Positions 5,201 through 63,590 of a stretch of DNA of 64,000 nucleotides are shown one piece after another. The notes beneath the pieces are model-generated. The model saw nothing but the letters and a program-made list of their open reading frames with translations, made no database searches and had not been told where the DNA came from. The translations under genes were made by a program, and so were the position numbers. Position 1 is the stretch's first letter, and each line of letters opens with the position of its first letter. Source of the stretch: an uncultured Gammaproteobacteria bacterium (lineage in GTDB: Bacteria; Patescibacteriota; Patescibacteriia; Patescibacteriales; UBA12465); NCBI GenBank assembly GCA_964522055.1, contig CAZFUP010000001.1, positions 8,577-72,576 on the forward strand. The letters run 5' to 3'.

Positions 5201-6223
5201 TTAAACAATTAAACCATTCTTTTTTTTATGGCGATAATCTTCTTTTAAGGAATGATAGCCATTTATAGTAGCTAGCTTAGCTGTCTTATGCCAAAAATCT
5301 GACTTATCTTTTTTAGACTTGCTTTCTAGTAAAAAATTTTTGATATTTTTATTTATTTCTAAAAATTCAAATAAGGCAATATTTTTTCTAGATAAGCGCT
5401 TTTTTTTATTGCCTGCATTCAGGCTTCTTTTTAAAGGATATATTCTTTGGTTGATGATAAGATGAAGATTGTCTATTTTTTCTTTTAGAGGTCTTTTTAA
5501 TTTTAGAATTGTTTCCAGTATCTTCCAGCTAGAATCAGAACTAGCAAGCCCTAATACCAATCGACCAGTGTTGGCGGCTGTGATAGCTTTTTGCCAATTT
5601 ATTTCTGAGTTAAGCGGGGCAATAATAATATCTGAATCGAGGTTAAGGATTTTATCCCAATTATAATTGTTTGCCTCAAGGCAATTTATATTTTCAAATT
5701 CATTCTCTAGGTTAAGTCCGAGGGAATAAGCACTTATTTTTGGACTATCTAATTCTTTAATAACAGCATTTAAGGTGGTACTTTTTCCTTGATTATCAGG
5801 TGAGCTGATAATAATTAGTCCGGATTTTTTCTTGAGTAAGCTTTTCAAAGTTTTAAGTTGCTCTCTTTCCATGCCTAATTGATTAAGGCGTAGTAATTGT
5901 TTTTCTTTAGGGATTATTTTGATTGTTATTCTATTGCCAAATTCAGAGGGGGTAATGCTTAAATAAAAACTGAGGCGATAATTAGAATCCAAAAAACGAC
6001 AATATTTTTTTTTAACAAGTTCATTGGAGGTTAGTTTAAAAATTTGCTCCAAACTATTATTTAAGTCTTTTTCTAGTTTTTTAGGCAGGGTAAAAGAATG
6101 ACTTTCGTTTCCTTGAAAAAAGTACTCTAAAGAAATGCCTTGTTTTTTGTTTTCTAAAGATATTTCGCTAGCTTCTTTAAAGGCAGCGTATTTAAATATC
6201 TTATTTATAATTTTTTTTGCCAT
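5201..6223 (-). CDS. Type II/IV secretion ATPase (PilB/PilT/GspE) family homolog with degenerate catalytic motifs (probable pseudo-ATPase)
   Basis: R(I)SxxPTxxGNRITIKII...LNQLG...GLIIISSPDNQGKSTTLNAV aligns to the GspE/PilB RVSTxPTxxGEKVVMRLL...GLILVTGPTGSGKSTTLYA region. AITAANTGRLVLGLASSDSS aligns to ALTAAETGHLVFxTLHTNSA. Walker A glycines, the Walker B Glu and the His-box His are substituted. Confidence 0.55.
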   Translation of the reverse strand: MAKKIINKIFKYAAFKEASEISLENKKQGISLEYFFQGNESHSFTLPKKLEKDLNNSLEQIFKLTSNELVKKKYCRFLDSNYRLSFYLSITPSEFGNRITIKIIPKEKQLLRLNQLGMEREQLKTLKSLLKKKSGLIIISSPDNQGKSTTLNAVIKELDSPKISAYSLGLNLENEFENINCLEANNYNWDKILNLDSDIIIAPLNSEINWQKAITAANTGRLVLGLASSDSSWKILETILKLKRPLKEKIDNLHLIINQRIYPLKRSLNAGNKKKRLSRKNIALFEFLEINKNIKNFLLESKSKKDKSDFWHKTAKLATINGYHSLKEDYRHKKKNGLIV

Positions 6224-53874: not shown

Positions 53875-53949
53875 TCCCGGGTAGCGCAGCGGTAGCGCAG
53901 TTGGCTGTTAACCAATTGGTCGTCGGTTCGAATCCGACCCCGGGAGCCA
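53875..53949 (+). tRNA. tRNA-Asn (anticodon GTT), CCA encoded
   Basis: Hand-folded cloverleaf: acceptor TCCCGGG/CCCGGGA, D-arm GCGC-AGCGGTA-GCGC, anticodon arm GTTGG-CTGTTAA-CCAAT (anticodon GTT at 53907-53909), T-arm GTCGG-TTCGAAT-CCGAC, discriminator G, CCA. Confidence 0.9.
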
Positions 53950-54107: not shown

Positions 54108-56231
54108 ATGGCTTATAACGGTAGAAAATTGAATAAATATATTTGGATTCCGAAATCAAAAACTGACCTAAGGGAATATAGGGAATTTTTGAAAATTTGT
54201 GATTCTCTTGAAAAAAGAGATGGGTTTTTTAATGATAAAACTATCGGGGAAGAAATGGTTAGTTTAAGGGCTATTGTGGATAGAGATAACACTGCTTCGT
54301 CATATATAGAAAAATATAAAGATAAAAAAGTTGGAGATCAGTCTTATGTGAGTAATGCCAGAATGCTTATAAGAATTTTTAGGTGGTTAGGCTTTATAAC
54401 TAAAGATTATAATCAGGAGATAGATGGAAAGTATTATTTGACTCCGTATGGAAAAGAATTACTTGAATTTCGTGGGCCGATCAAGGAAGAAGAAATTGAT
54501 ATTTTCAGAAATGCTTTTGCTAATATGAGATTTTTTAGTCAAAACGATGATATTAATTATAGAAATTATTATTTTAAGCAAAGGCCATTTTTTAATTTGA
54601 TAAGATTTTTAGATATATTAAATTATGCTTCTCATTACGAGCTAGCTCTTTCAGCACTAGTTTTAAAAGATGAATCTGCGACCGAGATCAAAGAAAAAAT
54701 TGATAAAATAATAAAATGTAGAAAGGAAAAAAATATAAGATGGTTAATGAATGAATATGATTTGGATTGCGATAATAAAAGTCGAGTAACTGGAATATAT
54801 GATGGCCCAAAAGTTTTATTGTCGTTTGCTAAGCAAATGGGGTTAGCAGAAGAGATGGATTTAAGAAGCCCTCAAAACAAAGAAGAATACAAATTGTATA
54901 AAAGGATGTATAGTGACAGTGGTCAGATTTCCGAAAAAAGTGTTAAAAAAATAACAAGAATTACTAAGCTTGGTAAAGATTTTGTTAAAAAATTTGGTGA
55001 TAAAAAATTATTATGGTTCAATGATCTGAATGTGGCAGAAGTAGCTCTTCTATTGCTCGTGATGAAGAATGAAAGCGCTTCAACTTTAGATCTAAAAGAA
55101 CTTGGATTAGAACCAGACAGTTTAAACGATATTTTTATTGTTGAGAATAACAAGGTAGGTGTTGTTGAATCTTTTAATTTTGATTTATATAGAGATGTTC
55201 CTTATGAGGATAGAAAAAAAGTTATTTCATTGATTAACAAAGTTGATAAAAATTTTTTCTCTCATTCATTAAAACATAATACTGATAGCAATAAACAAAT
55301 ATATATTCAAAACGCTGATTACATGGAATGTAAAGAATGCTATTTTGGAAAATGTGCTTTCTATAGAAATAAAATAGACAGTTTTGGAGGTAGTGACAGA
55401 TTTTCAAGCAGAGTGTGCCCAGAAAATTTACTAAATTTTGACGATAAAGGTTATTTGCATATTGATAGCGAAGAATGTGTTGGTTGTGGCCTATGTTTTA
55501 TTTCTTGCCCTTTTGCCGCTATATCAATAGATGAAAATAGCAAATGTTTTAAAAATGAATCAACTAATTCTGGGGAGCTGATTGATATAAGAAAAAAAGA
55601 GGAGTTGACTATTTTATCAGAAAATAAAGCTGAACAAAAAAACAATATATCTTTAAGTGATATACCAACTTTAGTCAATAATTTTATTGATAAGATAAAT
55701 AGACCTGGTAAGAAATGGGATAAGGATCGTTGCTATACCTATGTAAGAAATGTTTTTAGAATATTTGATGTAGATGCTGTGTATTCAGGTTCTGGCGGAA
55801 TGAAAACAAGGTCGGATGTATCCATAATTTCTCCTTTTGTAGCTGTCAGTGAGGTTAAAAGTCCAGCAGAGTCGCCTATAAATTTAAAAGCTGTAAGACA
55901 GGCTGTTGACGCTGCTGTTCAGTCTGAAACGAAACTAACTATGGCAATCGGTTTAACAACACATAGTGGAGCCGTGGATCAGGAAACAAAATATTTTAAA
56001 ACCATGGGAATAGGTGTTTTATTGTTGGAAATAAAATATATTTCTTTTATTTCTTTTCTGAGTTTATTTGTTAAATTTACTCCGGATTCATTAAAAAGAT
56101 TAATATCTAATAATAGAGGGCTTTTTGGAAAAAATGAATTAAAAAAATACCTATTTGATGAAATAGATATTTTAAACAGTGATATAAATAAAGAGGAACT
56201 AATAGCAGTAATTGATAAATTGTTTATTTAA
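54108..56231 (+). CDS. Candidate restriction endonuclease-like protein with embedded 2x[4Fe-4S] ferredoxin-like cysteine motif and C-terminal PD-(D/E)xK-like motif
   Basis: Eight Cys around aa 430-480: CKECYFGKC...VCP...CVGCGLCFISCP (canonical CxxCxxCxxxCP). D-x13-E-V-K (SDVSIISPFVAVSEVKS) near aa 590. Convergent with, and overlapping by 8 nt, two DNA methyltransferase genes. Confidence 0.4.
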   Translation: MAYNGRKLNKYIWIPKSKTDLREYREFLKICDSLEKRDGFFNDKTIGEEMVSLRAIVDRDNTASSYIEKYKDKKVGDQSYVSNARMLIRIFRWLGFITKDYNQEIDGKYYLTPYGKELLEFRGPIKEEEIDIFRNAFANMRFFSQNDDINYRNYYFKQRPFFNLIRFLDILNYASHYELALSALVLKDESATEIKEKIDKIIKCRKEKNIRWLMNEYDLDCDNKSRVTGIYDGPKVLLSFAKQMGLAEEMDLRSPQNKEEYKLYKRMYSDSGQISEKSVKKITRITKLGKDFVKKFGDKKLLWFNDLNVAEVALLLLVMKNESASTLDLKELGLEPDSLNDIFIVENNKVGVVESFNFDLYRDVPYEDRKKVISLINKVDKNFFSHSLKHNTDSNKQIYIQNADYMECKECYFGKCAFYRNKIDSFGGSDRFSSRVCPENLLNFDDKGYLHIDSEECVGCGLCFISCPFAAISIDENSKCFKNESTNSGELIDIRKKEELTILSENKAEQKNNISLSDIPTLVNNFIDKINRPGKKWDKDRCYTYVRNVFRIFDVDAVYSGSGGMKTRSDVSIISPFVAVSEVKSPAESPINLKAVRQAVDAAVQSETKLTMAIGLTTHSGAVDQETKYFKTMGIGVLLLEIKYISFISFLSLFVKFTPDSLKRLISNNRGLFGKNELKKYLFDEIDILNSDINKEELIAVIDKLFI

Positions 56232-56994
56232 TAGCAGACAACCTTTTTTTTGCAATTTTAATATAATCATTATTGAGTTCGAATCCAATATAGTTTCTAT
56301 TATTTATTTTAGCGCTCACTAATTCACTCCCAGATCCAGCAAATGGAACAAGTATTAAATCATTTTCATTTGAAAAATGTTTTATTATTTTGTCGCATAT
56401 GGCTATTGGTTTCTGTGTTGGGTGCTCCACTTTCTCTTTTTCAAAATTTTTTCCTGCTAGTGTTGGTATTTGCCAAACATCACCGCCATGTTTTCCTAAT
56501 GGGTTAGGCATCCATGATTTTCCATTTTTAGTTATTTTATATTTAATCCTATCAGCGCTTTTGTAAGGCTCTCTTATTGGGTGGTATGTATATTTTTTTG
56601 ATTTTGTAAACCAAAGTAATGGTTCATAGTTTGCTGATGGTTTTTTGGTATAACCTGACCAGCCATTTTCATAAAACCATATAAACATTCTTCCATATTT
56701 TAACCCTAGCTCATATAAATAGCATTGTGTGTAACAAATATAATCATGAATACCATATACAAATATAGATCCATTGTCTTTTAAAACTCTTTTTGATTCT
56801 TTTAGCCATTCTTTGCTCCATTCGAACCAATCTTCAACGTTTTCCCATTTATCACTATTGTTGCCAAAATCTTTGTTTAAATTATATGGTGGGTCAATAA
56901 TAATCAAATCTACCGAGTTATCAGGTAGATTTTTCATTAATTTAACACAATCTCCACTATATATTTTATTTTTTTGAATTTTTATCTTTTGCAT
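56224..56994 (-). CDS. DNA methyltransferase, beta-class amino-MTase (N6-adenine or N4-cytosine), DPPY type
   Basis: N-terminal IYSGDCVKLMKNLPDNSVDLIIIDPPYN (motif IV) and C-terminal HPTQKPIAICDKII...LVPFAGSGSE (motifs X/I). Confidence 0.85.
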   Translation of the reverse strand: MQKIKIQKNKIYSGDCVKLMKNLPDNSVDLIIIDPPYNLNKDFGNNSDKWENVEDWFEWSKEWLKESKRVLKDNGSIFVYGIHDYICYTQCYLYELGLKYGRMFIWFYENGWSGYTKKPSANYEPLLWFTKSKKYTYHPIREPYKSADRIKYKITKNGKSWMPNPLGKHGGDVWQIPTLAGKNFEKEKVEHPTQKPIAICDKIIKHFSNENDLILVPFAGSGSELVSAKINNRNYIGFELNNDYIKIAKKRLSAIK

Positions 56995-57880
56995 TTTGTA
57001 AAATCAATATGTATTGATGATGAATATTGGGAACATAAGCATATGGATATCCATATGGGTAAACCTTTTTTCTGCTTTGGTATAAAACAGTAATACCTTT
57101 TAGAACGAAATTTCCCTTGGATTCTATATAATTGGATAGATCAGTATGAAAAGGGTATAATCTCTCTTTGTGTCTAAGGTCACTGACTACGATTGCAATG
57201 TATTTTTTATTTTTTAATATTCTGTGGCAATCGTTAAAAAAATCTCCGAGAACTTCTATGAATTTATTATAGTTTTTAATTGTGGAAATATCATTTTTGT
57301 TTCCATCGCTGTATTTTGTATCCAATTTATTATTAAGCCTTTCTTGTTTTGCTTTATGATCAATTTTTTCTAGTATGTTCCAATATGGAGGACTTGTAAC
57401 AATAAAATCGAAAAAATCATTTTCAATTTTTTTAATTTCTTTTATTGAATCGCCGTTGATAATTTTCTGCTCTGGATATTTATTTGGGTAATCAACTATT
57501 TCTTTTTTTAATCTTTTTTTGGATAGATCGGAATATTTTTTCATCAGTTCTATCCCATATCCAATTCTACCGCTAAGAGCAGTTGCTTTTAGGGTTGACC
57601 CTACTCCCAAAAACGGATCAAGAACTTTATCCTGTTTTTTTGTAAAAAAATTTATCAGCCTAGAAACATCCTGATAAGAATATGGTGCGGGGTGCATTCT
57701 TTCTATTTCGGTATCCTTATGTTTGGCCCCCAAACCTTTCTGTAGAAACACAGATATTGTTTCCGGTATCCATTCTTTCGAAGTTAAATCATTTAGTTTG
57801 TTTCTTTTATCGTAAATGCCCCTTTCGCCTTTATCAACCCCGTTTTTGCTTTTTTTTGTTGTTTTTTCTTCTTTTTTCAT
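56966..57880 (-). CDS. DNA methyltransferase (amino-MTase, SPPY type, probably N4-cytosine or N6-adenine; motif order X-I...IV)
   Basis: HPAPYSYQDVSRLINFF...VLDPFLGVGST (motifs X/I) followed by FDFIVTSPPYWN (motif IV); overlaps downstream MTase by 29 nt. Confidence 0.8.
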   Translation of the reverse strand: MKKEEKTTKKSKNGVDKGERGIYDKRNKLNDLTSKEWIPETISVFLQKGLGAKHKDTEIERMHPAPYSYQDVSRLINFFTKKQDKVLDPFLGVGSTLKATALSGRIGYGIELMKKYSDLSKKRLKKEIVDYPNKYPEQKIINGDSIKEIKKIENDFFDFIVTSPPYWNILEKIDHKAKQERLNNKLDTKYSDGNKNDISTIKNYNKFIEVLGDFFNDCHRILKNKKYIAIVVSDLRHKERLYPFHTDLSNYIESKGNFVLKGITVLYQSRKKVYPYGYPYAYVPNIHHQYILILQNAKDKNSKK

Positions 57881-57925: not shown

Positions 57926-59245
57926 TTAAATAAAAATTTGCTTGTTTTTCATTGTTAATCTGCTTTGAAGATTGGAAAGCAAATCTCTTTTTTCTATAAT
58001 ACTGCCTTCTTTGAGAATATATTTGGCATAATTTCTCATATCTACATCTTTCTGCTTTTCAAAATCTTTAGACTCTGTTTTTAGAATACTTCTACTAAAT
58101 TTATAATATCGTTCAACTTCTTCTTTAAACTGTCCTTGTATGCCAAGGATATTTAGGTCAATTTTATCAATCAGGTGGGATAGTTGGATTATTAATTCTT
58201 CTTCTCTTAAATAACCCCCTTTACAATGTAGGTTCCTAGCTCTTGTGCATCCATAATAAACATATCTTCTAACTGAGCCATCGCTCAGTTTTTTAAATTT
58301 TTCGTCAGCTGTGATTCCAGATCCACAATGACCGCATTTAATTAATTTAGTGAAAGCAAACTCTTTACATTCGTGTCTCTCGATATTATCTCTATCCAAT
58401 CTCTCTCTGGCTTTTTGAAATAACACCTTAGTAATGATTGGATCTTGTTTGCCTTGATACCATTTATCACTACCTATGGGATATTCAAATTCTCCGCAGT
58501 AATATGGATCGGCCAGTATTCTATAAATCATACTAAGAGTAAGATTTTTATTATTTTTTGTTTTAAAATCTGTTTCATTTACTATCCATCTTAGCAGTTG
58601 TCTGCCACTCCAATTTTCATAGGCCACTTTCTCGAATAATTTTTTAATATATGGCGCCCTCTTTGGGTCTATAAAAACTTTTTTATCGCCTTTGTCAGCA
58701 TATTTGTCATGAATATATCCAAGGGGTGCTGGTCCTGGTCGCCAACCTTTTTCGCACTTTGCTCTTAGCCCTCGTTTAACATTTATGCCTTTGTGGTCGT
58801 TTTCGAGCTTGGCTTGAGATCCAAGAATCATTAGAAGAAACTTCTCGTTGGGGTTATTTGTAAACTTTTGGCCATGCGTTCTTATCTCTTGAAGTCTACC
58901 TTGATCCATTAAGTCCACTACAGCCCCTAAATCGCCCGCATTACGGCTTAAGCGGTCTGGTGCCAAGCAAAGTATCCCATTAAACATTCCAGTCCTTATA
59001 TCGGCCAGTAATTGGTTGTAGACGGGTCTTTGGCCAGAATCCTTGGCTGAATGACTTTCTCGTCTTATATCGGCTATCTCCATGTTTTCAGCCTTTGCCA
59101 TTTCCAGCATCTCTTTTATTTGAGAATCAATAGAAAGGGCTTGCTGTTCGTCTGATTCTGTTGATTTTCTTGCATATAGGCAATACTTGATGGGAATTAC
59201 CTCTTGAACCCTTGTAAAACCCACGGTTTGTTGTTGTGTTTCCAT
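57926..59245 (-). CDS. Large serine recombinase (resolvase-domain integrase/transposase-type)
   Basis: N-terminal resolvase catalytic domain YCLYARKSTESDEQQALSIDSQ (Ser nucleophile) and ...RLSRN; recombinase domain; C-terminal zinc ribbon CGHCGS...YYGCTRARNLHC. Confidence 0.85.
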   Translation of the reverse strand: METQQQTVGFTRVQEVIPIKYCLYARKSTESDEQQALSIDSQIKEMLEMAKAENMEIADIRRESHSAKDSGQRPVYNQLLADIRTGMFNGILCLAPDRLSRNAGDLGAVVDLMDQGRLQEIRTHGQKFTNNPNEKFLLMILGSQAKLENDHKGINVKRGLRAKCEKGWRPGPAPLGYIHDKYADKGDKKVFIDPKRAPYIKKLFEKVAYENWSGRQLLRWIVNETDFKTKNNKNLTLSMIYRILADPYYCGEFEYPIGSDKWYQGKQDPIITKVLFQKARERLDRDNIERHECKEFAFTKLIKCGHCGSGITADEKFKKLSDGSVRRYVYYGCTRARNLHCKGGYLREEELIIQLSHLIDKIDLNILGIQGQFKEEVERYYKFSRSILKTESKDFEKQKDVDMRNYAKYILKEGSIIEKRDLLSNLQSRLTMKNKQIFI

Positions 59246-59282
59246 ATTTTTACTAATTTTACTTAATTACAACAACATTAAT

Positions 59283-59650
59283 GACGCGACCCGCAAAGGT
59301 AGTCCAGGCCCCTGAAGTAGACAAACTGTTGGTAACTAAACTTTACTTTTATGCCTTTTTAAGCTATATTTTAAGTGCGAAACCACAATTGAATTTTCGA
59401 AAGACGTGCTTAAAAAGTACGGTCTCTTGTATATAGGAACGGGCACTCCGACCCATACAAGAGGCAGTCTTTCGGGACACCAATTGTGGTTTCGCAACCA
59501 GGTCGGGTGTCCGTTTTTGTTTTCGGGCATTTGACGTTTTATAAATCAAGTTAAGAGGGGGCATAACCTGCTGAGGCTGGTGGCCGTTCCTCCGGCCGAG
59601 CCGGACCGGAATCGGCCACCAGCCAACCTCGGGCAGGTTTGGCTATATGC
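59283..59650. ncRNA. Candidate structured non-coding RNA(s)/recombination-associated structured region (unclassified). Contains a ~120-nt extended hairpin (59376-59496) and a GC-rich (~65% GC) multi-helix element (59556-59645)
   Basis: Perfect 16-bp inverted repeat TGCGAAACCACAATTG (59376-59391)/CAATTGTGGTTTCGCA (59481-59496). Nested perfect IRs CGAAAGAC/GTCTTTCG and CTCTTGTAT/ATACAAGAG. 10-bp IR CTGGTGGCCG/CGGCCACCAG plus ACCTGC/GCAGGT. GC content far above the ~35% background. No ORF of note. Confidence 0.35.
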
Positions 59651-59710
59651 TGTTAATTAATCGCTTGGCACATTGACCTTTGTTCCGTGCTATTTTGAGA
59701 ATAGAGCAAT

Positions 59711-59740
59711 AAAAAAACACCAAAAAGAGAATTTTTGGTG
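59711..59740 (-). terminator. Rho-independent terminator (minus strand) for ORF 59813-60433
   Basis: On minus strand: CACCAAAAA-ttctc-TTTTTGGTG perfect 9-bp stem followed by TTTTTTT. Confidence 0.7.
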
Positions 59741-59812
59741 AATGTTTTGTGAAAGTATATATCAAAAAATCGCCCTTTTTGACCGATTTTCTAAGTTATT
59801 AACATTCACTGT

Positions 59813-60433
59813 TTATTTTGTTGATTTATTGAATTCTGGGCGGTATTTAAAAGGGATTGCTTTTGTTGGTGTTTTATAGTTATTTTGTGATTTTTGTATA
59901 AGACATAAAATATATTTAGATTCTTTAGCTATCCTTCCGTTAGTATCTTCAATTTCCTGCCTAAACACTCTGGAATCGATTTCATCTTTAGGTTTTTTGC
60001 CTAGATTTTTTATCCAACCATTGTAATCATGATATGTCTTAGCCCCATCTTGGTTATTATAGAAGAACCATATAATTAAGGCCCTTTGGCCATCAACCGG
60101 AATCTCGTCGTCTAAGTATTTGATAATTATTTGGCCGCTATTATCATTGCGTGTAATCACTAGTTTTTCTTTAGCCTTTTTTGTTTCTTGGTTTTCTGAT
60201 TCGTCATTTAGAAAATTTGATGTTGGATTTATAAGCCAAATGACCTTTCTGATTATATCGGAGTTTCTCATTCTGATAATTATTTTTTCTCGCCACCCTT
60301 GTTCTATTAACTTGAAGTATAAAAATCTGGCAAAAATGAAAAATAAAATAACTACCATTAGAAAAATAATGGTCATATTCCATATTGATTTAGTTGCCTC
60401 ATGAAGAGCTGAGGCGAATGCTGGGTCTGCCAT
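59813..60433 (-). CDS. Hypothetical membrane-anchored protein (single N-terminal TM helix plus ~165-aa soluble domain)
   Basis: IWNMTIIFLMVVILFFIFARFLYF hydrophobic segment near N-terminus; no recognisable motif; lies in the accessory island. Confidence 0.45.
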   Translation of the reverse strand: MADPAFASALHEATKSIWNMTIIFLMVVILFFIFARFLYFKLIEQGWREKIIIRMRNSDIIRKVIWLINPTSNFLNDESENQETKKAKEKLVITRNDNSGQIIIKYLDDEIPVDGQRALIIWFFYNNQDGAKTYHDYNGWIKNLGKKPKDEIDSRVFRQEIEDTNGRIAKESKYILCLIQKSQNNYKTPTKAIPFKYRPEFNKSTK

Positions 60434-60549: not shown

Positions 60550-61320
60550 ATGAATTTATCTTTTAACGCTGCTTTGGCAGATAATTACACGAGCCAATCA
60601 CAAAAAATTAGAGTATTGACCGAAAGCTGGGTTGATAAAAATGCCTATTGCCCTAATTGTGGGCAGTTAAACGTAGATAAATACGGAAACAATAAACCGG
60701 TGGCCGATTTTTATTGTCCAAATTGCCATGAAGATTATGAATTAAAGAGTAAAAAAGATAGCGTTGGCGCAAAAATTGTTGACGGAGCTTATCGAACAAT
60801 GATTGAAAGATTAAATAGCAGTAATAACCCAAATTTCTTTTTATTAAATTATGATCTTGATGCTTTAGAGGTTTTAAATTTTTTAGTCATACCAAAACAT
60901 TTTTTTATTCCCGGAATCATTGAAAAAAGAAAACCGTTGGCAGAAACCGCCAGGCGAGCCGGTTGGATAGGCTGTAATATATTATTACACGGAATTCCGC
61001 AGTCCGGAAAAATATATTTTGTTAAAAATAAGATTGTTCAACCCAAGGAATTAGTTTTATCTGAATGGAAAAAGACTTTATTTTTAAGAGAAGAAAAAGA
61101 AGCTAGTGCAAAGGGTTGGTTGCTGGATATTATGAATTGCGTGGAAAAATTTAGAGGCAGAGAATTTTCGCTGGGCGAAGTTTATAAGTTTGAAGCCGGA
61201 TTGAGCAGGAAGTATCCTGATAACCGTCATATCAAAGATAAAATTCGTCAGCAGCTCCAATTCTTAAGAGATAAGAGGTATTTAAAATTTATAAATCGTG
61301 GAACCTATAAATTATTATAA
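60550..61320 (+). CDS. Zinc-ribbon-containing nuclease-like protein, candidate restriction endonuclease (possibly DpnI/Dam-replacing-family-like, methyl-directed)
   Basis: Two CPNC pairs (YCPNCGQ...FYCPNCHEDYELKSKK) with D-x10-E-L-K spacing reminiscent of PD-(D/E)xK; basic C-terminal region (RQQLQFLRDKRYLKF) compatible with a winged helix; located between defence-type genes. Confidence 0.4.
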   Translation: MNLSFNAALADNYTSQSQKIRVLTESWVDKNAYCPNCGQLNVDKYGNNKPVADFYCPNCHEDYELKSKKDSVGAKIVDGAYRTMIERLNSSNNPNFFLLNYDLDALEVLNFLVIPKHFFIPGIIEKRKPLAETARRAGWIGCNILLHGIPQSGKIYFVKNKIVQPKELVLSEWKKTLFLREEKEASAKGWLLDIMNCVEKFRGREFSLGEVYKFEAGLSRKYPDNRHIKDKIRQQLQFLRDKRYLKFINRGTYKLL

Positions 61321-61346
61321 TTTTTATACTGATTTAATAAAAAATT

Positions 61347-62711
61347 ATGAAACAAATAATAAATTACGATAAATTAATAGTCAATCCAGAAAACTATCGC
61401 TTTGATCCAGTGGATGGCCAGGAACAAGCAATAGATTTAATGATTGAAGAAAAGGGAGCGGAAATATTAAATATGGCGAAACATATCCTTGAAAAGGGCT
61501 TGGATCAGGCCAAGGATTTGAGGGTTTTAGAATTAAAAAATAAAGAGTATCTCGTTTTAGACGGCAATAGAAGAATTGTCGCAATCAAATGTCTTCATAA
61601 TCCGGAGTTAGTAAAAAATAAAAAATTACAAAATGCATTTAAATCACTTTTAAAGACTGGTAAGAAGCCAATATCAAAAATATTGTGTTTTGTGTATTTG
61701 AACGAAAAAGACGCGGCAGAATGGATTAAGTTAGACCACACCGGAAAAAACGATGGAGTTGGACAAGATTCTTGGGGTTCGCCTGAAAAAGAAAGATTTG
61801 GATATAAATTTGAAGGAACGATATCCCCGGCCATGCAAGCGGTTAATATCATAGAAAAAGAACTTGGCAAAAAAATTAATACTAAAAAATTAAAGATATC
61901 CACAGTAAATCGCATATTATCTAGCCCTGACGCTCGTTTATATGTAGGTGTGAATGTTGATAAAGGCAATTTAACTTTTACTTGTGATAAAAACGAGGCA
62001 ATTAAACGATTAGACACTTTGGTTGATAAGATTATTACAAGTAATGTTACTGTTGGCACTGTATATCACAAACCTCAAATAGTAGAGTTTGTTACAGATC
62101 TTTACGGCGCAAAACCTGCTACGTGTAAAAAGCCAACCCTTCCTTTTCCAAGTGTTAGTAATGTGTCTGTCGGTGGTAAGGCCGTACCAGGCACATTAGT
62201 GAAAAATGACTGGATTGATTATAAGGAATATACCGCATATAATGGACCTGAAAAAGTAAAGAAATTACTTAATGAAATGAGGTCATTAGACCCAAAACAA
62301 AATGCAAATATATTAATGCCAGCTTTGCGTGTTTTGTTGGAATTATGTTTATATGATAAATTAAGACAGACAGGACATATCGTAAAATTAGTAAATATTT
62401 ATAAATCTAATATAAAGAATGAAAATACTAATAGAGCTAAGAAGGGAGCGGCCTTAATTTCTGAAAAAAAGAATTGGACGCCAAGTTTTAGAGAAATGCT
62501 AAATTATATTGTCGAAGAAAATAGCGGTGTAATTAATGACCCGCAAGCGCGAGAAATTTTAGAAAAAAAGATTAAAAAGGAAGATAATTTTGTAAAAGGT
62601 CTTAACGATTTCATACATAATGTCCACGATATTCCTGCTAAAGACGATCCAGAAAAAACCTGGAGCGGATTCGGTCGATTACTTTTTGATATAATTAAAG
62701 ATATAAAATAG
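61347..62711 (+). CDS. ParB/Srx-fold (ParBc, ParB-like nuclease/NTPase domain) protein with uncharacterised C-terminal region
   Basis: N-terminal LIVNPENYRFDPV (PNPxQPR-like box) and RVLELKNKEYLVLDGNRRIVAIKCL (GERRxRA-like arginine finger) typical of the ParB N-terminal domain; no ParA partner nearby. Confidence 0.6.
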   Translation: MKQIINYDKLIVNPENYRFDPVDGQEQAIDLMIEEKGAEILNMAKHILEKGLDQAKDLRVLELKNKEYLVLDGNRRIVAIKCLHNPELVKNKKLQNAFKSLLKTGKKPISKILCFVYLNEKDAAEWIKLDHTGKNDGVGQDSWGSPEKERFGYKFEGTISPAMQAVNIIEKELGKKINTKKLKISTVNRILSSPDARLYVGVNVDKGNLTFTCDKNEAIKRLDTLVDKIITSNVTVGTVYHKPQIVEFVTDLYGAKPATCKKPTLPFPSVSNVSVGGKAVPGTLVKNDWIDYKEYTAYNGPEKVKKLLNEMRSLDPKQNANILMPALRVLLELCLYDKLRQTGHIVKLVNIYKSNIKNENTNRAKKGAALISEKKNWTPSFREMLNYIVEENSGVINDPQAREILEKKIKKEDNFVKGLNDFIHNVHDIPAKDDPEKTWSGFGRLLFDIIKDIK

Positions 62712-62720
62712 CAAATAAAT

Positions 62721-63590
62721 ATGTTTTTTTCCCCATTACGCTACCCTGGCGGTAAAAATAAACTAGCAAAATTTATTGCTATGATTTGTTTTGAAAATGA
62801 TATTAATGGACATTATATTGAGCCCTACGCCGGCGGAGCCGCAGTAGCTTTATATTTATTGATTAATGATAAAGTTTCTAAAATAACTATAAATGATAAA
62901 GATCGCTCAATTTATGCTTTTTGGTATTCTGTTTTAAATCATACAACTAAATTTTGTAATTCAATTAATAACACAGAGATAAATGTTAAAAATTGGAAAA
63001 AATTTAAGGAAGTTCAAAAAAATAAAGAAACTGCTGATTTATTTACTTTAGGTTTTTCAACATTTTTTCTTAATCGTACAAATGTTTCCGGCATTATCGA
63101 CGGCGGTATTATTGGTGGGCTAAAACAAGTGGGCAATTACAAGATTAATTGCAGATTTAATAAAAAAACTTTAATTGAAAGAATTAAAAAAATCGCTTCT
63201 TGTAAAGATAAAATAGAATTATACAATTTAGATGCCTTGGATTTAATTAAAAGAATTAATAAAGAATGCAGAAGTTCAAATAAAATATTTTATTTTGACC
63301 CTCCGTATTATTTAAAAGGCGAATCGCTATATTTAAATTGTTATAAGCCAGACGACCATAAACAAGTTAGTGAAGAAATAATAAAGATTAAAAATGCGAA
63401 ATGGATAGTTTCTTATGACAATACGACGGAGATAAAAAAGTTATATAGTAATTGTCAAAAAATTGAATATTCATTTTTTCATACAGCACGCGAAGCAAAA
63501 ATAGGGAAAGAAATTTTATTTTTTTGTGATAAGCTTAAAGTTCCGGTCGTACCAGACCCAACAAGACTTGTCGAAAATGATTATGAATAA
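62721..63590 (+). CDS. DNA adenine methyltransferase, Dam/D12 class (N6-adenine)
   Basis: N-terminal FSPLRYPGGKNKLAKFI (D12-class AdoMet motif), catalytic FYFDPPYY. Confidence 0.8.
   Translation: MFFSPLRYPGGKNKLAKFIAMICFENDINGHYIEPYAGGAAVALYLLINDKVSKITINDKDRSIYAFWYSVLNHTTKFCNSINNTEINVKNWKKFKEVQKNKETADLFTLGFSTFFLNRTNVSGIIDGGIIGGLKQVGNYKINCRFNKKTLIERIKKIASCKDKIELYNLDALDLIKRINKECRSSNKIFYFDPPYYLKGESLYLNCYKPDDHKQVSEEIIKIKNAKWIVSYDNTTEIKKLYSNCQKIEYSFFHTAREAKIGKEILFFCDKLKVPVVPDPTRLVENDYE

What the first reader, a model, noticed from the sequence alone, without database searches (positions are those of the whole stretch)
59283..59650. ~370-nt non-coding region packed with nested perfect inverted repeats and a GC-rich multi-helix element, directly upstream of the serine recombinase
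Between the recombinase start (59245) and the minus-strand terminator at 59711-59740 there is no credible ORF. The region contains (i) a ~120-nt extended hairpin formed by a perfect 16-bp IR (59376-59391 with 59481-59496), with two further perfect inner helices of 8 and 9 bp, a symmetric 6x6 internal loop and a 22-nt apical loop (AUAGGAACGGGCACUCCGACCC). It also contains (ii) a 59556-59645 segment at roughly 65% GC in a ~35% GC genome, with a perfect 10-bp IR (CTGGTGGCCG/CGGCCACCAG) extended by ACCTGC/GCAGGT and GAGG/CCTC. GC-rich, helix-dense islands in AT-rich genomes are nearly always functional structured RNAs. Candidates are a housekeeping RNA such as SRP RNA (the 3' side reads ...CCACCAGCCAACCUCGGGCAGG, loosely reminiscent of the 4.5S AGCAGCCAAGGCAG region) or RNase P RNA. 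The alternative is a recombinase-associated guide or regulatory RNA, or att site.
Basis: seen in the sequence. Interest (0 to 1): 0.7.

Follow-up and report, generated by a model that had tools for sequence, protein, structure and literature searches.

The report
LOOT-like structured RNA beside a recombinase
The first big hairpin is a real, conserved, previously uncatalogued structured RNA of candidate-phyla (Patescibacteria) bacteria, related to the orphan "LOOT" RNA and often found next to one family of large serine recombinases, while the GC-rich second hairpin has no relatives and stays unexplained.

Summary
The inverted repeats are real and far beyond chance. The region is a composite. 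(1) 59281-59337 holds recombinase leader boxes and a 21-bp site, GTAGACAAACTGTTGGTAACT, conserved across a very large Patescibacteria family of large serine recombinases. Two direct copies of this site flank inserts in three related loci, so it is probably the att site. (2) 59342-59370 is a conserved promoter. It drives a ~148-nt plus-strand RNA (59377-59524, with an anti-tail to ~59537) that belongs to a family of at least 95 distinct sequences. Covariation for three helices is strong: 92.7% of cells pair, against 35-47% in slid controls. The 3' tail before a U tract is complementary to the apical loop. No Rfam family matches, so it is not SRP, RNase P, 6S or tmRNA. In the closest relatives, Rfam LOOT RNA (RF03000) occupies the same slot behind the same promoter, and it shares the long hairpin, tail and U tract. 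The window RNA is therefore a new LOOT-related variant. Most members sit 20-80 nt upstream of highly diverse same-strand ORFs. The best reading is a leader or small RNA with a pseudoknot-type terminator. (3) The GC-rich hairpin at 59556-59645 is an orphan that replaces the ORF present in near-identical relatives. I found no evidence that the RNA guides recombination.

The parts
57926..59245 (-). Large serine recombinase, 439 aa, with Resolvase, Recombinase and Zn-ribbon domains
   Evidence: Pfam finds all three domains. R26 and S28 in YARKS are invariant in the alignment. The best named relatives, CcrB and XisF, score below their cut-offs. At least 582 relatives occur in GTDB Patescibacteria genomes.
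59229..59277 (-). Hairpin around the recombinase start codon, with 9-nt perfect arms at 59229-59237 and 59269-59277
   Evidence: Listed as I16. Analogous arm pairs with different sequences are seen in many homologous loci. The feature was not formally tested.
59281..59307 (.). Conserved recombinase leader boxes ATGACGC (59281-59287) and AGTCCAG (59301-59307)
   Evidence: ATGACGC is present at this position in 59 of 80 GTDB loci. No consensus RNA fold was found, with an alifold energy of -0.4 kcal/mol. These are probably DNA or protein-binding boxes.
59317..59337 (.). 21-bp site GTAGACAAACTGTTGGTAACT, the putative recombination (att-like) site
   Evidence: It occurs once in the window. Two direct copies flank inserts of 0.7, 1.1 and 4.6 kb between the recombinase leader and the RNA in L083, L130 and L201, and shuffled sequence gives no matches. 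In loci without a recombinase, homology begins exactly at this site, just after the terminator of the upstream gene.
59342..59370 (+). Sigma-70-type promoter of the RNA: TTTACT, 17 nt, TATATT
   Evidence: Found by the promoter scan. Across 97 family members the -35 positions are 69-97% conserved, the -10 positions 80-99%, and G at -14 96%. Homology to the LOOT-bearing relatives ends at the -10 box, at 59370.
59377..59524 (+). Structured RNA ('type 1', LOOT-related). P1 is 59377-59391 / 59481-59495; P2 is 59398-59405 / 59467-59474; P2a is 59406-59420; P3 is 59422-59432 / 59455-59465. The apical loop is 59433-59454, the bulge GGACAC 59475-59480, the tail GGUCGGGUGUCCG 59501-59513 and the U tract 59514-59523.
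   Evidence: Covariance model R1 scores it at 143 bits, E = 1e-34. The family alignment is A2. 92.7% of cells pair and 34 of 48 pairs change on both sides. There are 214 G-U cells against 27 A-C cells, which places the RNA on the plus strand. The tail is complementary to loop segments 59440-59446 and 59448-59453, as read from the sequence and seen.
59524..59546 (+). Anti-tail CGGGCAUUUGAC (59524-59535), which pairs with the tail and encloses the U tract, followed by UUUUAUAAAU. This is the end of the conserved module.
   Evidence: This is 'hairpin 2' in the fold. Tail and anti-tail are complementary in the family: median -11.2 against -5.5 kcal/mol, with 51 of 94 flanks at z < -2. Identity of 96.9% to L239 stops at 59546.
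59556..59645 (.). Orphan GC-rich hairpin of about 35 bp
   Evidence: It folds to -59.9 kcal/mol on the plus strand and -54.3 on the minus strand. Rfam gives only miRNA-precursor-like noise, far below the gathering scores. No homolog appears in any fetched locus or in IMG/VR. L145, L239 and L240 carry a 138-140-aa ORF at this place instead.
59711..59747 (-). Intrinsic terminator of the convergent 206-aa gene (59813-60433)
   Evidence: Found by the terminator scan.

Best explanation
The interval is a composite control region with four parts.

Shown:
- Positions 59377-59524 on the plus strand encode a ~148-nt structured RNA, transcribed divergently from the recombinase from a conserved sigma-70-type promoter (59342-59370).
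- The RNA belongs to a previously uncatalogued family found so far only in Patescibacteria-type contigs. It has a three-way junction (P1, P2, P2a, P3) and a 22-nt conserved apical loop.
- Its 13-nt 3' tail sits directly before a U tract. The tail is complementary to the apical loop, and alternatively to a conserved bulge and to an anti-tail just downstream.
- The family is a structural variant of the orphan Rfam LOOT RNA. In the closest relatives, LOOT sits in exactly this slot behind the same promoter, and it shares the long hairpin, the tail and the U tract.

Inferred mechanism:
- The nascent tail pairs with the apical loop. This forms a pseudoknot-type helix directly upstream of the U tract.
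- That helix terminates transcription and releases a ~150-nt RNA.
- Transcripts that escape termination refold, tail to anti-tail, and run into the next gene.
- The element therefore works as an attenuating 5' leader for whatever gene lies downstream. The signal it senses is unknown.

Other parts:
- The 21-bp site at 59317-59337 and the boxes at 59281-59307 belong to the large serine recombinase. The site is probably its att site and the boxes its operator region.
- In this genome the downstream ORF has been replaced by an orphan GC-rich hairpin (59556-59645), so here the RNA stands alone.
For: The family and its structure:
- There are 95 distinct members.
- P1, P2 and P3 show changes on both sides in 28 of 33 pairs. 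92.7% of cells pair, against 35-47% when partners are slid. 0 of 500 shuffles reach the observed values.
- The helices hold 214 G-U cells against 27 A-C cells.
- The promoter is conserved.
- Each locus holds one copy.

Tail pairings:
- The bulge GAYACY pairs with the tail in 98.9% of cells, and the only changes are C to U opposite G.
- Between type 1 and the LOOT of L208, the loop-tail pairs change compensatorily: loop GGACAU with tail GUGUCC becomes loop GGUCU with tail AGACC.
- In all 18 LOOT members analysed, the tail's best partner is the apex of the long hairpin, with covarying sequences. The median z is -2.7.
- The anti-tail is enriched: 51 of 94 flanks have z < -2.

Leader role:
- Of 123 loci scanned, 82 yielded a same-strand ORF starting within 250 nt of the tail motif. 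Most of these start 20-80 nt after the U tract.
- These ORFs fall into about 45 unrelated groups.
- Only 14 of 91 flanks could hold their own promoter, against 6.0 +/- 2.7 expected by chance.

LOOT relation.

The site.
Against: - No transcript data exist, so the RNA ends are inferred.
- The tail was fixed by the search pattern used to collect the family. Loop-tail covariation within type 1 therefore cannot be measured and rests on comparison with LOOT.
- P1 (14 bp) and the tail pairings may be sterically incompatible, and which structure forms in the cell is unknown.
- In the window and several other loci no same-strand ORF follows, yet the RNA is intact. That fits a trans-acting RNA.
- Rfam files LOOT as a small RNA.
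- The diversity of downstream genes argues against a metabolite riboswitch.
- About 15% of flanks could carry an internal promoter.
Confidence: 0.55

Rival explanations
1. The RNA is an autonomous trans-acting small RNA gene with its own promoter and terminator. It acts on other targets. The variable DNA and the recombinase lie next to it only because the conserved RNA gene, or the 21-bp site beside it, is an integration hotspot, as tRNA and tmRNA genes are for genomic islands.
For: - It has a strong conserved promoter and a U-tract 3' end.
- The RNA is intact in the window without a downstream ORF.
- 63 of the 94 loci with room upstream lack an adjacent recombinase and have ordinary upstream neighbours such as a tRNA, LexA or Xer.
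- Homology between loci ends right after the RNA.
- Rfam types LOOT as a small RNA.
Against: - The anti-tail beyond the U tract is conserved, which an RNA ending at the U tract would not need.
- Same-strand ORFs start so close to the U tract, often 20-50 nt, that they must be co-transcribed.
- No target is known.
Confidence: 0.3
2. The RNA is a cofactor of the adjacent large serine recombinase. It could be a guide or scaffold for site choice, or a regulator of recombinase expression or directionality. Recombinase, site and RNA would then form one recombination system.
For: - Type 1 or LOOT RNA lies directly beside the recombinase gene in 31 of 94 metagenome loci and in about 16 of 80 GTDB loci, on either side of the gene.
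- The module 57928-59546 moves as a unit, 96.9% identical to L239 with unrelated flanks.
- The 21-bp site abuts the RNA promoter.
Against: - There is no mutual information between site variants and variable RNA positions: maximum 0.32 against a shuffled 95th percentile of 0.37.
- The window and L081 share the same core of the site (AAACTGTTGGTAACT) but have different P1 sequences.
- About 50 of the 80 GTDB recombinase loci show neither type-1 RNA nor LOOT within 4 kb.
- About two thirds of the RNA loci have no adjacent recombinase.
- Large serine recombinases are known to recognise DNA through protein domains alone. A 2026 review lists RNA guidance only for IS110/IS1111.
Confidence: 0.06
3. 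The inverted repeats act at the DNA level. They would be recombinase-binding or crossover sites for an invertible segment such as an invertible promoter, or cruciform signals, and not an RNA.
For: - There is a perfect 16-bp inverted repeat next to a recombinase gene.
- Invertible promoters beside invertases are a known arrangement (my own knowledge).
Against: - Helix positions change by compensatory substitutions with many G-U pairs, 214 against 27 A-C. These would be mismatches on the other strand or in a protein-recognised repeat.
- No locus shows the inverted orientation among 120 or more copies.
- The RNA occurs without any recombinase in most loci.
Confidence: 0.03
4. The GC-rich segment 59556-59645 is a functional structured RNA of its own, or part of the same RNA.
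For: - It is the most GC-rich spot in a 33.5% GC window and forms a very stable hairpin of -59.9 kcal/mol.
- It lies downstream of the RNA promoter on the same strand.
Against: - No homolog appears in 240 related loci, including three with 93-98% identical flanking modules, which carry an ORF there instead.
- Rfam gives only sub-threshold miRNA-like matches on both strands.
- It is a near-perfect long hairpin without junctions, which is more typical of a repeat or mobile-element remnant. GC-rich hairpins of an IS200-like element occur at the equivalent place in L201.
- No U tract follows it.
Confidence: 0.1
5. The region is a housekeeping RNA (SRP, RNase P, 6S or tmRNA), or else a decayed coding remnant.
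For: The short string ACCAGGUCGGGU resembles ACCAGGUCAGGU of E. coli 4.5S RNA. This comparison comes from my own memory of that sequence.
Against: - No Rfam match to any of these families appears at gathering scores or at E<=10.
- ARAGORN finds no tmRNA.
- The overlapping ORFs are not conserved.
- The substitution pattern is helix covariation, not codon-like.
Confidence: 0.01

Closest known systems
LOOT RNA (Rfam RF03000; Weinberg et al. 2017, PMC5737381), an orphan RNA motif
   Same: - It sits in the same genomic slot: behind the same site and promoter, beside recombinases 96% identical to the window's.
- The long hairpin is homologous: CCUAU...ACGG.C.UUCCGACCAG...UAGGA.
- It follows the same logic of a tail complementary to the hairpin apex, then a U-rich tract, then an anti-tail.
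- It shares the ACAAUUGAAU string near the 5' end.
- It shows the same association with diverse downstream ORFs, many with N-terminal hydrophobic stretches.
   Different: - The window RNA does not match the LOOT covariance model, even at E<=10.
- It lacks LOOT's 5' hairpin and its two GNRA-tetraloop hairpins.
- Instead it has a 14-bp closing helix P1, helix P2, and a P2a branch that forms a three-way junction.
Transcription-attenuating leaders and riboswitch expression platforms (terminator versus alternative pairing)
   Same: - It has a 5' position before same-strand ORFs.
- It has a U tract preceded by a helix-forming segment with at least two competing partners.
- Its junction and loop nucleotides are conserved.
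   Different: - No ligand or binding protein is known.
- The downstream genes are unrelated to each other.
- The terminator helix would be made with a distant hairpin loop, as a pseudoknot, rather than a simple hairpin.
- The window copy has no gene to regulate.
Type III toxin-antitoxin loci (ToxIN): promoter, structured RNA, leaky terminator, protein gene
   Same: - The order of parts is the same: promoter, RNA, terminator, ORF.
- The location is also similar, in mobile or defence regions.
   Different: - There are no tandem RNA repeats.
- The downstream proteins are not a conserved toxin family.
- None of the proteins scanned against Pfam or PADLOC (window neighbours and ORFs around the RNA in L081/L083) matched a ToxN-like family. 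The downstream ORFs of the other loci were only clustered, not scanned.
Cassette chromosome recombinases (CcrA/B of SCCmec) and other large serine integrases with an att site beside a conserved gene
   Same: - The protein has the same three-domain architecture, and CcrB is the best named match.
- A short specific site lies next to a conserved gene and is duplicated around inserted DNA.
- The surroundings are variable cargo and defence genes.
   Different: - The scores are far below the family cut-offs: 112 bits against a cut-off of 900.
- The conserved neighbour is an RNA gene, not rlmH.
- The recombinase is conserved at 57-76% identity across hundreds of Patescibacteria species.
- No element ends have been defined.
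Bridge RNA and seekRNA of IS110/IS1111
   Same: A structured non-coding RNA is encoded immediately upstream of a recombinase gene.
   Different: - The enzyme is a serine recombinase, not a DEDD transposase.
- The RNA is divergent and has its own promoter.
- The variable RNA positions show no covariation with the DNA site.

Membership tests
LOOT RNA (RF03000) | Scores at or above the gathering threshold (46.4 bits) of the Rfam covariance model | tested here: not met
   No LOOT match appears in the window at gathering scores or at E<=10. Type-1 loci L003 and L081 also gave none, while eight true LOOT copies scored 58-95 bits in the same run.
LOOT RNA (RF03000) | Series of hairpins capped by stable tetraloops: a 5' hairpin inside a 4-bp helix, a long hairpin, then two GNRA hairpins | tested here: not met
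   The Rfam consensus is shown. The window RNA instead has P1, P2, P2a and P3. Only the long hairpin is shared.
LOOT RNA (RF03000) | Apex of the long hairpin complementary to the 3' segment before a U-rich tract. This property was found here and is not part of the Rfam model. | tested here: met
   For LOOT, the partner lies at positions 54-80 in all 18 members analysed, and 14 of the 18 have z < -2. In the window, loop 59440-59453 pairs with tail 59501-59513 over 13 bp with one bulge, and the pairs change compensatorily relative to L208.
Bacterial SRP RNA, RNase P RNA, 6S RNA and tmRNA | Match to the Rfam models, or to ARAGORN for tmRNA | tested here: not met
   The only gathering-level hit in the 64 kb is tRNA-Asn. 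No match to these families appears at E<=10 in 58900-60100. ARAGORN finds no tmRNA.
Conserved structured RNA (generic) | Compensatory covariation in the proposed helices above controls, with strand asymmetry (G-U) | tested here: met
   34 of 48 pairs change on both sides. The covariation score is 0.421 against 0.194 for shuffles (0 of 500 reach it) and 0.07-0.13 for slid partners. There are 214 G-U cells against 27 A-C cells. Caveat: the sequences were collected with an exact 18-mer in the tail.
Cis-acting transcription attenuator or riboswitch | Lies in the 5' UTR of a same-strand gene that lacks its own promoter | tested here: inconclusive
   This holds for most family members: 82 loci have a same-strand ORF close by, and only 14 of 91 flanks have a possible own promoter. 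It does not hold in the window, where no ORF follows.
Cis-acting transcription attenuator or riboswitch | Terminator helix plus U tract with a mutually exclusive alternative pairing | tested here: met
   The tail can pair with the loop, the bulge or the anti-tail, and the U tract is 59514-59523. This rests on sequence analysis only; termination itself was not measured.
Cis-acting transcription attenuator or riboswitch | Binds a ligand or factor that shifts the structures | not testable with these tools
   This needs in-line probing or transcription assays.
Large serine recombinase | Resolvase catalytic domain with the nucleophile serine, plus the Recombinase domain and zinc ribbon | tested here: met
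   PF00239, PF07508 and PF13408 all score above their cut-offs. R26 and S28 are invariant in 21 homologs.
att site of a serine integrase | Short specific sequence found as direct copies at both junctions of inserted DNA | tested here: met
   L083 has two identical 21-mers 688 bp apart around one ORF and its terminator. L130 and L201 are similar. Shuffled DNA gives 0 matches in 1.48 Mb. Only three such loci were found.
att site of a serine integrase | Imperfect dyad symmetry around a central crossover dinucleotide, and recombination by the enzyme | tested here: inconclusive
   No clear dyad is seen by eye in 59300-59345. Recombination cannot be tested with these tools.
Integron | Tyrosine IntI integrase, attI, and arrays of cassettes each ending in an attC hairpin | tested here: not met
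   The enzyme is a serine recombinase. There is one RNA copy per locus and no arrays. Only 3 of the 57 loci that carry the site have two copies of it.
Bridge or seek RNA systems | IS110-type DEDD recombinase, with RNA loops that covary with target and donor DNA | tested here: not met
   The protein domains differ. The mutual-information test was negative.

The most novel reading that the evidence does not exclude
The recombinase, the 21-bp site, the shared promoter and an exchangeable LOOT-type RNA together form a gene-capture and expression platform in Patescibacteria, with a large serine recombinase as its enzyme. Incoming DNA such as defence genes or surface-protein genes would be integrated at the site. 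It would then be expressed under the control of the RNA leader, or the RNA would itself take part in recombination or its control. This would give the orphan LOOT RNAs their first function and describe an integron-like system built on a different enzyme class.
Probability: 0.12. Interest if true: 0.85.

Novelty: new variant of a known kind. Interest (0 to 1): 0.6.

Why it matters
- LOOT is one of the well-supported orphan RNA motifs. Rfam types it as a small RNA, the searchable literature gives no function, and from my own recollection of its database description it was known only from metagenomes.
- This work places LOOT and a new sister architecture in candidate-phyla-radiation bacteria.
- It shows that both share a hidden element: the hairpin apex, tail, U tract and anti-tail. 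That element looks like an expression switch.
- It ties both RNAs physically to one of the most conserved large serine recombinase families of these organisms and to variable defence or cargo DNA.
- This yields concrete experiments: termination assays, and recombination assays on a defined 21-bp site.
- It also defines a new RNA family that could be added to Rfam.
- If the RNA controls acquired genes or recombination, it would be a new regulatory principle in organisms where very little regulation is understood.

Tried and rejected
- **Housekeeping RNAs.** An Rfam scan of the whole window and a permissive scan of 58900-60100 gave no SRP, RNase P, 6S, tmRNA, riboswitch or ribozyme match. Only miRNA-like noise appeared on the GC hairpin.
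- **Small protein gene.** The ORF starting in ATGACGC is not conserved.
- **RNA structure in the recombinase leader.** alifold on 64 leaders gave no consensus fold, at -0.4 kcal/mol.
- **Tandem arrays of RNA-bearing cassettes.** Model R1 finds exactly one copy per locus. L103 does have a LOOT copy 1.4 kb upstream of the type-1 RNA.
- **Minimal IS-like element made of recombinase plus leader.** There is no site-like sequence after the recombinase stop codon, and the flanks differ from the first base.
- **Second copy of the 21-bp site in the window.** None was found with up to 3 mismatches.
- **Guide-target covariation between site and RNA.** The test was negative.
- **Internal promoter for the downstream ORFs.** Only a weak enrichment was seen, 14 of 91 flanks.
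- **Homologs of the GC hairpin.** None appeared in 213 loci at the time of the test. The IMG/VR pattern scan returned 25 unrelated GC-rich sequences.
- **Similarity to deposited phages.** None was found.
- **Literature.** Nothing was found on LOOT function, on RNA motifs of Patescibacteria, or on RNA-linked serine recombinases.
- **Failed call.** One NCBIfam call failed because of a wrong coordinate reference.
Full report
**Observation**

- The 16-nt perfect inverted repeat lies at 59376-59391 / 59481-59496. Two inner helices and a 22-nt apical loop follow.
- In the second segment, a 12-bp perfect repeat GGCTGGTGGCCG lies at 59575-59586 / 59613-59624, where 0.01 matches are expected by chance.
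- That second segment has 64-68% GC in a window of 33.5% GC and is the most GC-rich spot of the 64 kb.
- The 515-nt intergenic region folds far better than shuffles on both strands, and better on the plus strand (-193.5 kcal/mol, z = -8.9) than on the minus strand (-162.2, z = -6.5).
- Only short, unconserved ORFs overlap it.

**What it is not**

Rfam 15 finds only tRNA-Asn in the whole window. In 58900-60100 nothing relevant appears at E<=10. The GC hairpin draws sub-threshold matches to miRNA-precursor models on both strands, which is what any long hairpin does. ARAGORN finds no tmRNA. SRP, RNase P, 6S and tmRNA are therefore excluded at the sensitivity of those models.

**The recombinase and its own signals**

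Gene 57926-59245 (minus strand) encodes a three-domain large serine recombinase. Its catalytic R26 and S28 are invariant among homologs.
- The family is very large and unusually conserved. 8000 proteins were scored at E<=1e-10, and the 120 best listed are 63-100% identical to the query. At least 582 relatives occur in GTDB species genomes, and the 80 kept loci come largely from Patescibacteria-type MAGs.
- In 59 of the 80 loci fetched, the sequence upstream of the start codon holds the same boxes. In window orientation these are ATGACGC, about 11 nt, AGTCCAGA, then ..AGTAGAC-AAnnTGTTGGTAACT.
- These boxes show no consensus RNA fold, so I read them as DNA-level signals.
- The last 21 bp, GTAGACAAACTGTTGGTAACT (59317-59337), behave like a recombination site. 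In L083 two identical copies flank a 0.7-kb insert of one ORF plus its terminator, placed between the recombinase leader and the RNA promoter. L130 and L201 show the same arrangement with 1.1-kb and 4.6-kb inserts. Shuffled DNA gives no match to the site.
- In about 20 loci that have the RNA but no recombinase, similarity begins exactly at this site, immediately after the terminator of an unrelated upstream gene.
- The window has a single copy.

**The RNA**

The first nhmmer search showed that the big hairpin is conserved in L002-L004, with different stem sequences.
- 95 distinct sequences align over about 150 nt.
- With a manually drawn structure (P1 14 bp, P2 8 bp, P2a, P3 11 bp, plus a 3-bp loop hairpin), 92.7% of cells pair, against 35-47% when partners are slid by 1-3 columns.
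- 34 of 48 pairs change on both sides. None of 500 shuffles reaches any of the five measures.
- The helices hold 214 G-U cells against 27 A-C cells, so the structure belongs to the plus-strand transcript.
- A promoter sits at a fixed distance upstream: TTTACT at -35 to -30, G at -14, and TATATT at -12 to -7, each position 69-99% conserved.
- Covariance model R1 finds exactly one copy in the window (59377-59524, 143 bits) and one per related locus.
- One caveat applies. Because the family was collected through an invariant tail, variation in that tail could not be sampled.

**The 3' end is the interesting part**

The tail GGUCGGGUGUCCG (59501-59513) directly precedes UUUUUGUUUU. It has three possible partners.
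- The first is the apical loop, CGGGCAC-U-CCGACC at 59440-59453, giving 13 bp with one bulged base.
- The second is the conserved bulge GAYACY next to P1. It pairs in 98.9% of cells, and its only variation is C to U opposite G.
- The third is an anti-tail just after the U tract (59524-59535, 'hairpin 2').
- The anti-tail is a family feature. Over 94 distinct flanks, the tail/flank duplex energy has a median of -11.2 against -5.5 kcal/mol for shuffled flanks, and 51 flanks have z < -2.

**Relation to LOOT**

The recombinases closest to the window's (96% amino-acid identity, L204-L211) share the leader, site and promoter at about 90% nucleotide identity. Similarity stops at 59370, the end of the -10 box, and a different RNA follows. 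Rfam identifies that RNA as LOOT (RF03000), with scores of 58-95 bits in eight loci.
- nhmmer finds LOOT in 21 of the 80 GTDB recombinase loci. Eight copies lie upstream and divergent at 157-229 nt, the same slot as the window RNA. Five lie 9-62 nt downstream of the recombinase on the same strand.
- A global alignment of type 1 (L081) with the LOOT of L208 shows homologous blocks: the promoter, the long hairpin with the loop ACGG.C.UUCCGACCAG, and the tail, U tract and anti-tail.
- Where the loop differs (GGACAU against GGUCU), the tail differs in a compensating way (GUGUCC against AGACC).
- In all 18 LOOT copies analysed, the 17 nt before the U-rich tract find their best partner in the apex of the long hairpin (positions 54-80). 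The sequence pairs differ widely between members; the median z is -2.7, and 14 of 18 are below -2.
- LOOT copies also have a covarying anti-tail.
- The Rfam model does not include this tail.
- The window RNA therefore fails LOOT membership. It scores no hit and lacks the 5' hairpin and the two GNRA hairpins. It does share LOOT's core and its genomic role, so I class it as a new structural variant of a LOOT-like superfamily.
- I found no published function for LOOT.

**Context**

- Among 94 type-1 loci with room upstream, 31 have the recombinase divergent at about 120-210 nt, and a few more have it 0.65-7 kb away behind inserts. The rest have other neighbours: a tRNA, LexA, Xer, or a recurrent ~240-aa protein.
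- Downstream, 82 loci have a same-strand ORF that usually starts 20-80 nt after the U tract.
- These ORFs fall into about 45 unrelated groups. Many have an N-terminal hydrophobic stretch suggesting membrane or secreted proteins, judged by eye.
- Only 14 of 91 flanks could hold a promoter of their own, against 6.0 +/- 2.7 by chance. Most of these genes must therefore be transcribed through the RNA.
- The window module 57928-59546 is 96.9% identical to L239 and 93% identical to L240, while both flanks are unrelated.
- The surroundings are defence genes: type II methyltransferases, a DpnI-like enzyme and PD-Lambda-5 in the window, and other restriction-modification genes in the relatives.

**The GC-rich hairpin**

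Positions 59556-59645 form a near-perfect hairpin of about 35 bp.
- No related locus has it. L145, L239 and L240 are identical to the window up to 59546 and continue with a 138-140-aa ORF.
- A pattern scan of IMG/VR found only unrelated GC-rich DNA.
- It is not followed by a U tract.
- It remains unexplained. A remnant of a small mobile element is possible, since an IS200-like element with GC-rich end hairpins abuts the 21-bp site in L201. I have no direct evidence for that.

**Mechanism and rivals**

The best-supported reading is that the RNA is a leader with a terminator made by a long-range pairing. As the tail emerges, it pairs with the exposed apical loop directly upstream of the U tract. 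This releases a ~150-nt RNA. Polymerases that escape allow the tail to pair with the anti-tail and continue into the downstream gene.
- Shown: the RNA family, its helices, its strand, its promoter, the complementarities and their conservation, and the gene arrangement.
- Inferred: termination, the switch itself, and any signal it senses.
- The main rival is an autonomous small RNA whose conserved gene, with the adjacent site, marks an integration hotspot. The intact, gene-less window copy fits this rival. The conserved anti-tail and the tightly spaced downstream ORFs do not.
- A role as cofactor or guide of the recombinase is not excluded by the physical linkage. It has no positive support: the mutual-information test was negative, most recombinase loci lack these RNAs, and no RNA-guided serine recombinase is reported in a 2026 review.
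- DNA-level inversion sites, housekeeping RNAs and a coding remnant are rejected.

**Verdict**

The element is a new LOOT-related RNA variant with strong comparative support. It comes with a newly seen link between LOOT-type RNAs, a conserved Patescibacteria serine recombinase and a defined 21-bp site. Function is still inferred, and the GC-rich hairpin remains an orphan.

Noticed in passing
L006, L017, L026, L038, L040, L067, L076 (upstream of the recombinase); L010, L015, L019, L031, L033 (downstream): Rfam LOOT RNA, an orphan motif, lies directly beside this recombinase family in GTDB MAGs, many of them labelled Patescibacteria. It is present in 21 of 80 loci. This gives LOOT a likely host phylum and a gene association.
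   Followed up: partly
LOOT copies, for example L010:1634-1800, L019:5363-5530, L040:3600-3772 (minus strand): LOOT transcripts have a 3' tail, not included in the Rfam model, that is complementary to the apex of the long hairpin. A U-rich tract and a covarying anti-tail follow. L040 and L103 then have a canonical terminator whose 5' arm is also complementary to the tail.
   Followed up: partly
window 57928-59546: The recombinase, leader, site, promoter and RNA form a sharply bounded 1.62-kb module that is 96.9% identical to JGI contig Ga0116247_10029066 (L239). The DNA on both sides is unrelated, so the module is either exchanged as a unit or serves as a conserved anchor between variable regions.
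   Followed up: partly
L083:4936-4956 and 5624-5644; L130:681 and 1755; L201:625 and 5215: Direct copies of the 21-bp site bracket inserted DNA between the recombinase leader and the RNA promoter. The L201 insert ends with an IS200-like TnpA and GC-rich hairpins.
   Followed up: partly
L081 and L083 (IMG/VR contig 3300042286_000458): One 32.5-kb 'viral' contig carries two diverged paralogous copies, 75-88% identical, of the whole module: recombinase, RNA, 138-aa ORF, HTH protein, and two methyltransferases, one of them fused to ParB-N.
   Followed up: no
L015, L021, L036, L037, L044, L045, L049, about 60-120 nt beyond the site: Another subgroup of recombinase loci has a different conserved block after the site: a direct repeat AACCTATGA(A/T)AACCTATGAA followed by TTGAC. 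It could be an operator and promoter of another kind.
   Followed up: no
window 59229-59277: A 9-bp perfect helix, UGUUGUUGU/ACAACAACA, encloses the recombinase start codon and the region where a ribosome-binding site would lie. Arms with different sequences occur at the same place in many homologs, which suggests translational control of the recombinase.
   Followed up: partly
window 56224-57880 and 60550-63590: This is a defence-island context. It holds two type II N6/N4 methyltransferases downstream of the recombinase, a DpnI-like methyl-directed endonuclease, and a PD-Lambda-5 A/B pair. The 206-aa ORF at 59813-60433 has no family match.
   Followed up: partly
L088, L097, L102, L180, L197, L106, L125, L168, L150, L108 (upstream of the RNA): In ten loci without a recombinase, the gene before the RNA encodes the same ~240-aa protein, with a conserved ..TRAKNRAI.. 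core and a C-terminus ..ASD.ISELL... It was not identified.
   Followed up: no
L014:5359-5501: A weak match to the type-1 RNA model (27 bits, E = 1e-4) lies just downstream of the recombinase. It may be a divergent family member.
   Followed up: no
window 53875-53949: tRNA-Asn (GTT) lies 4 kb from the recombinase, at the transition from the ribosomal and core gene block to the variable region.
   Followed up: no
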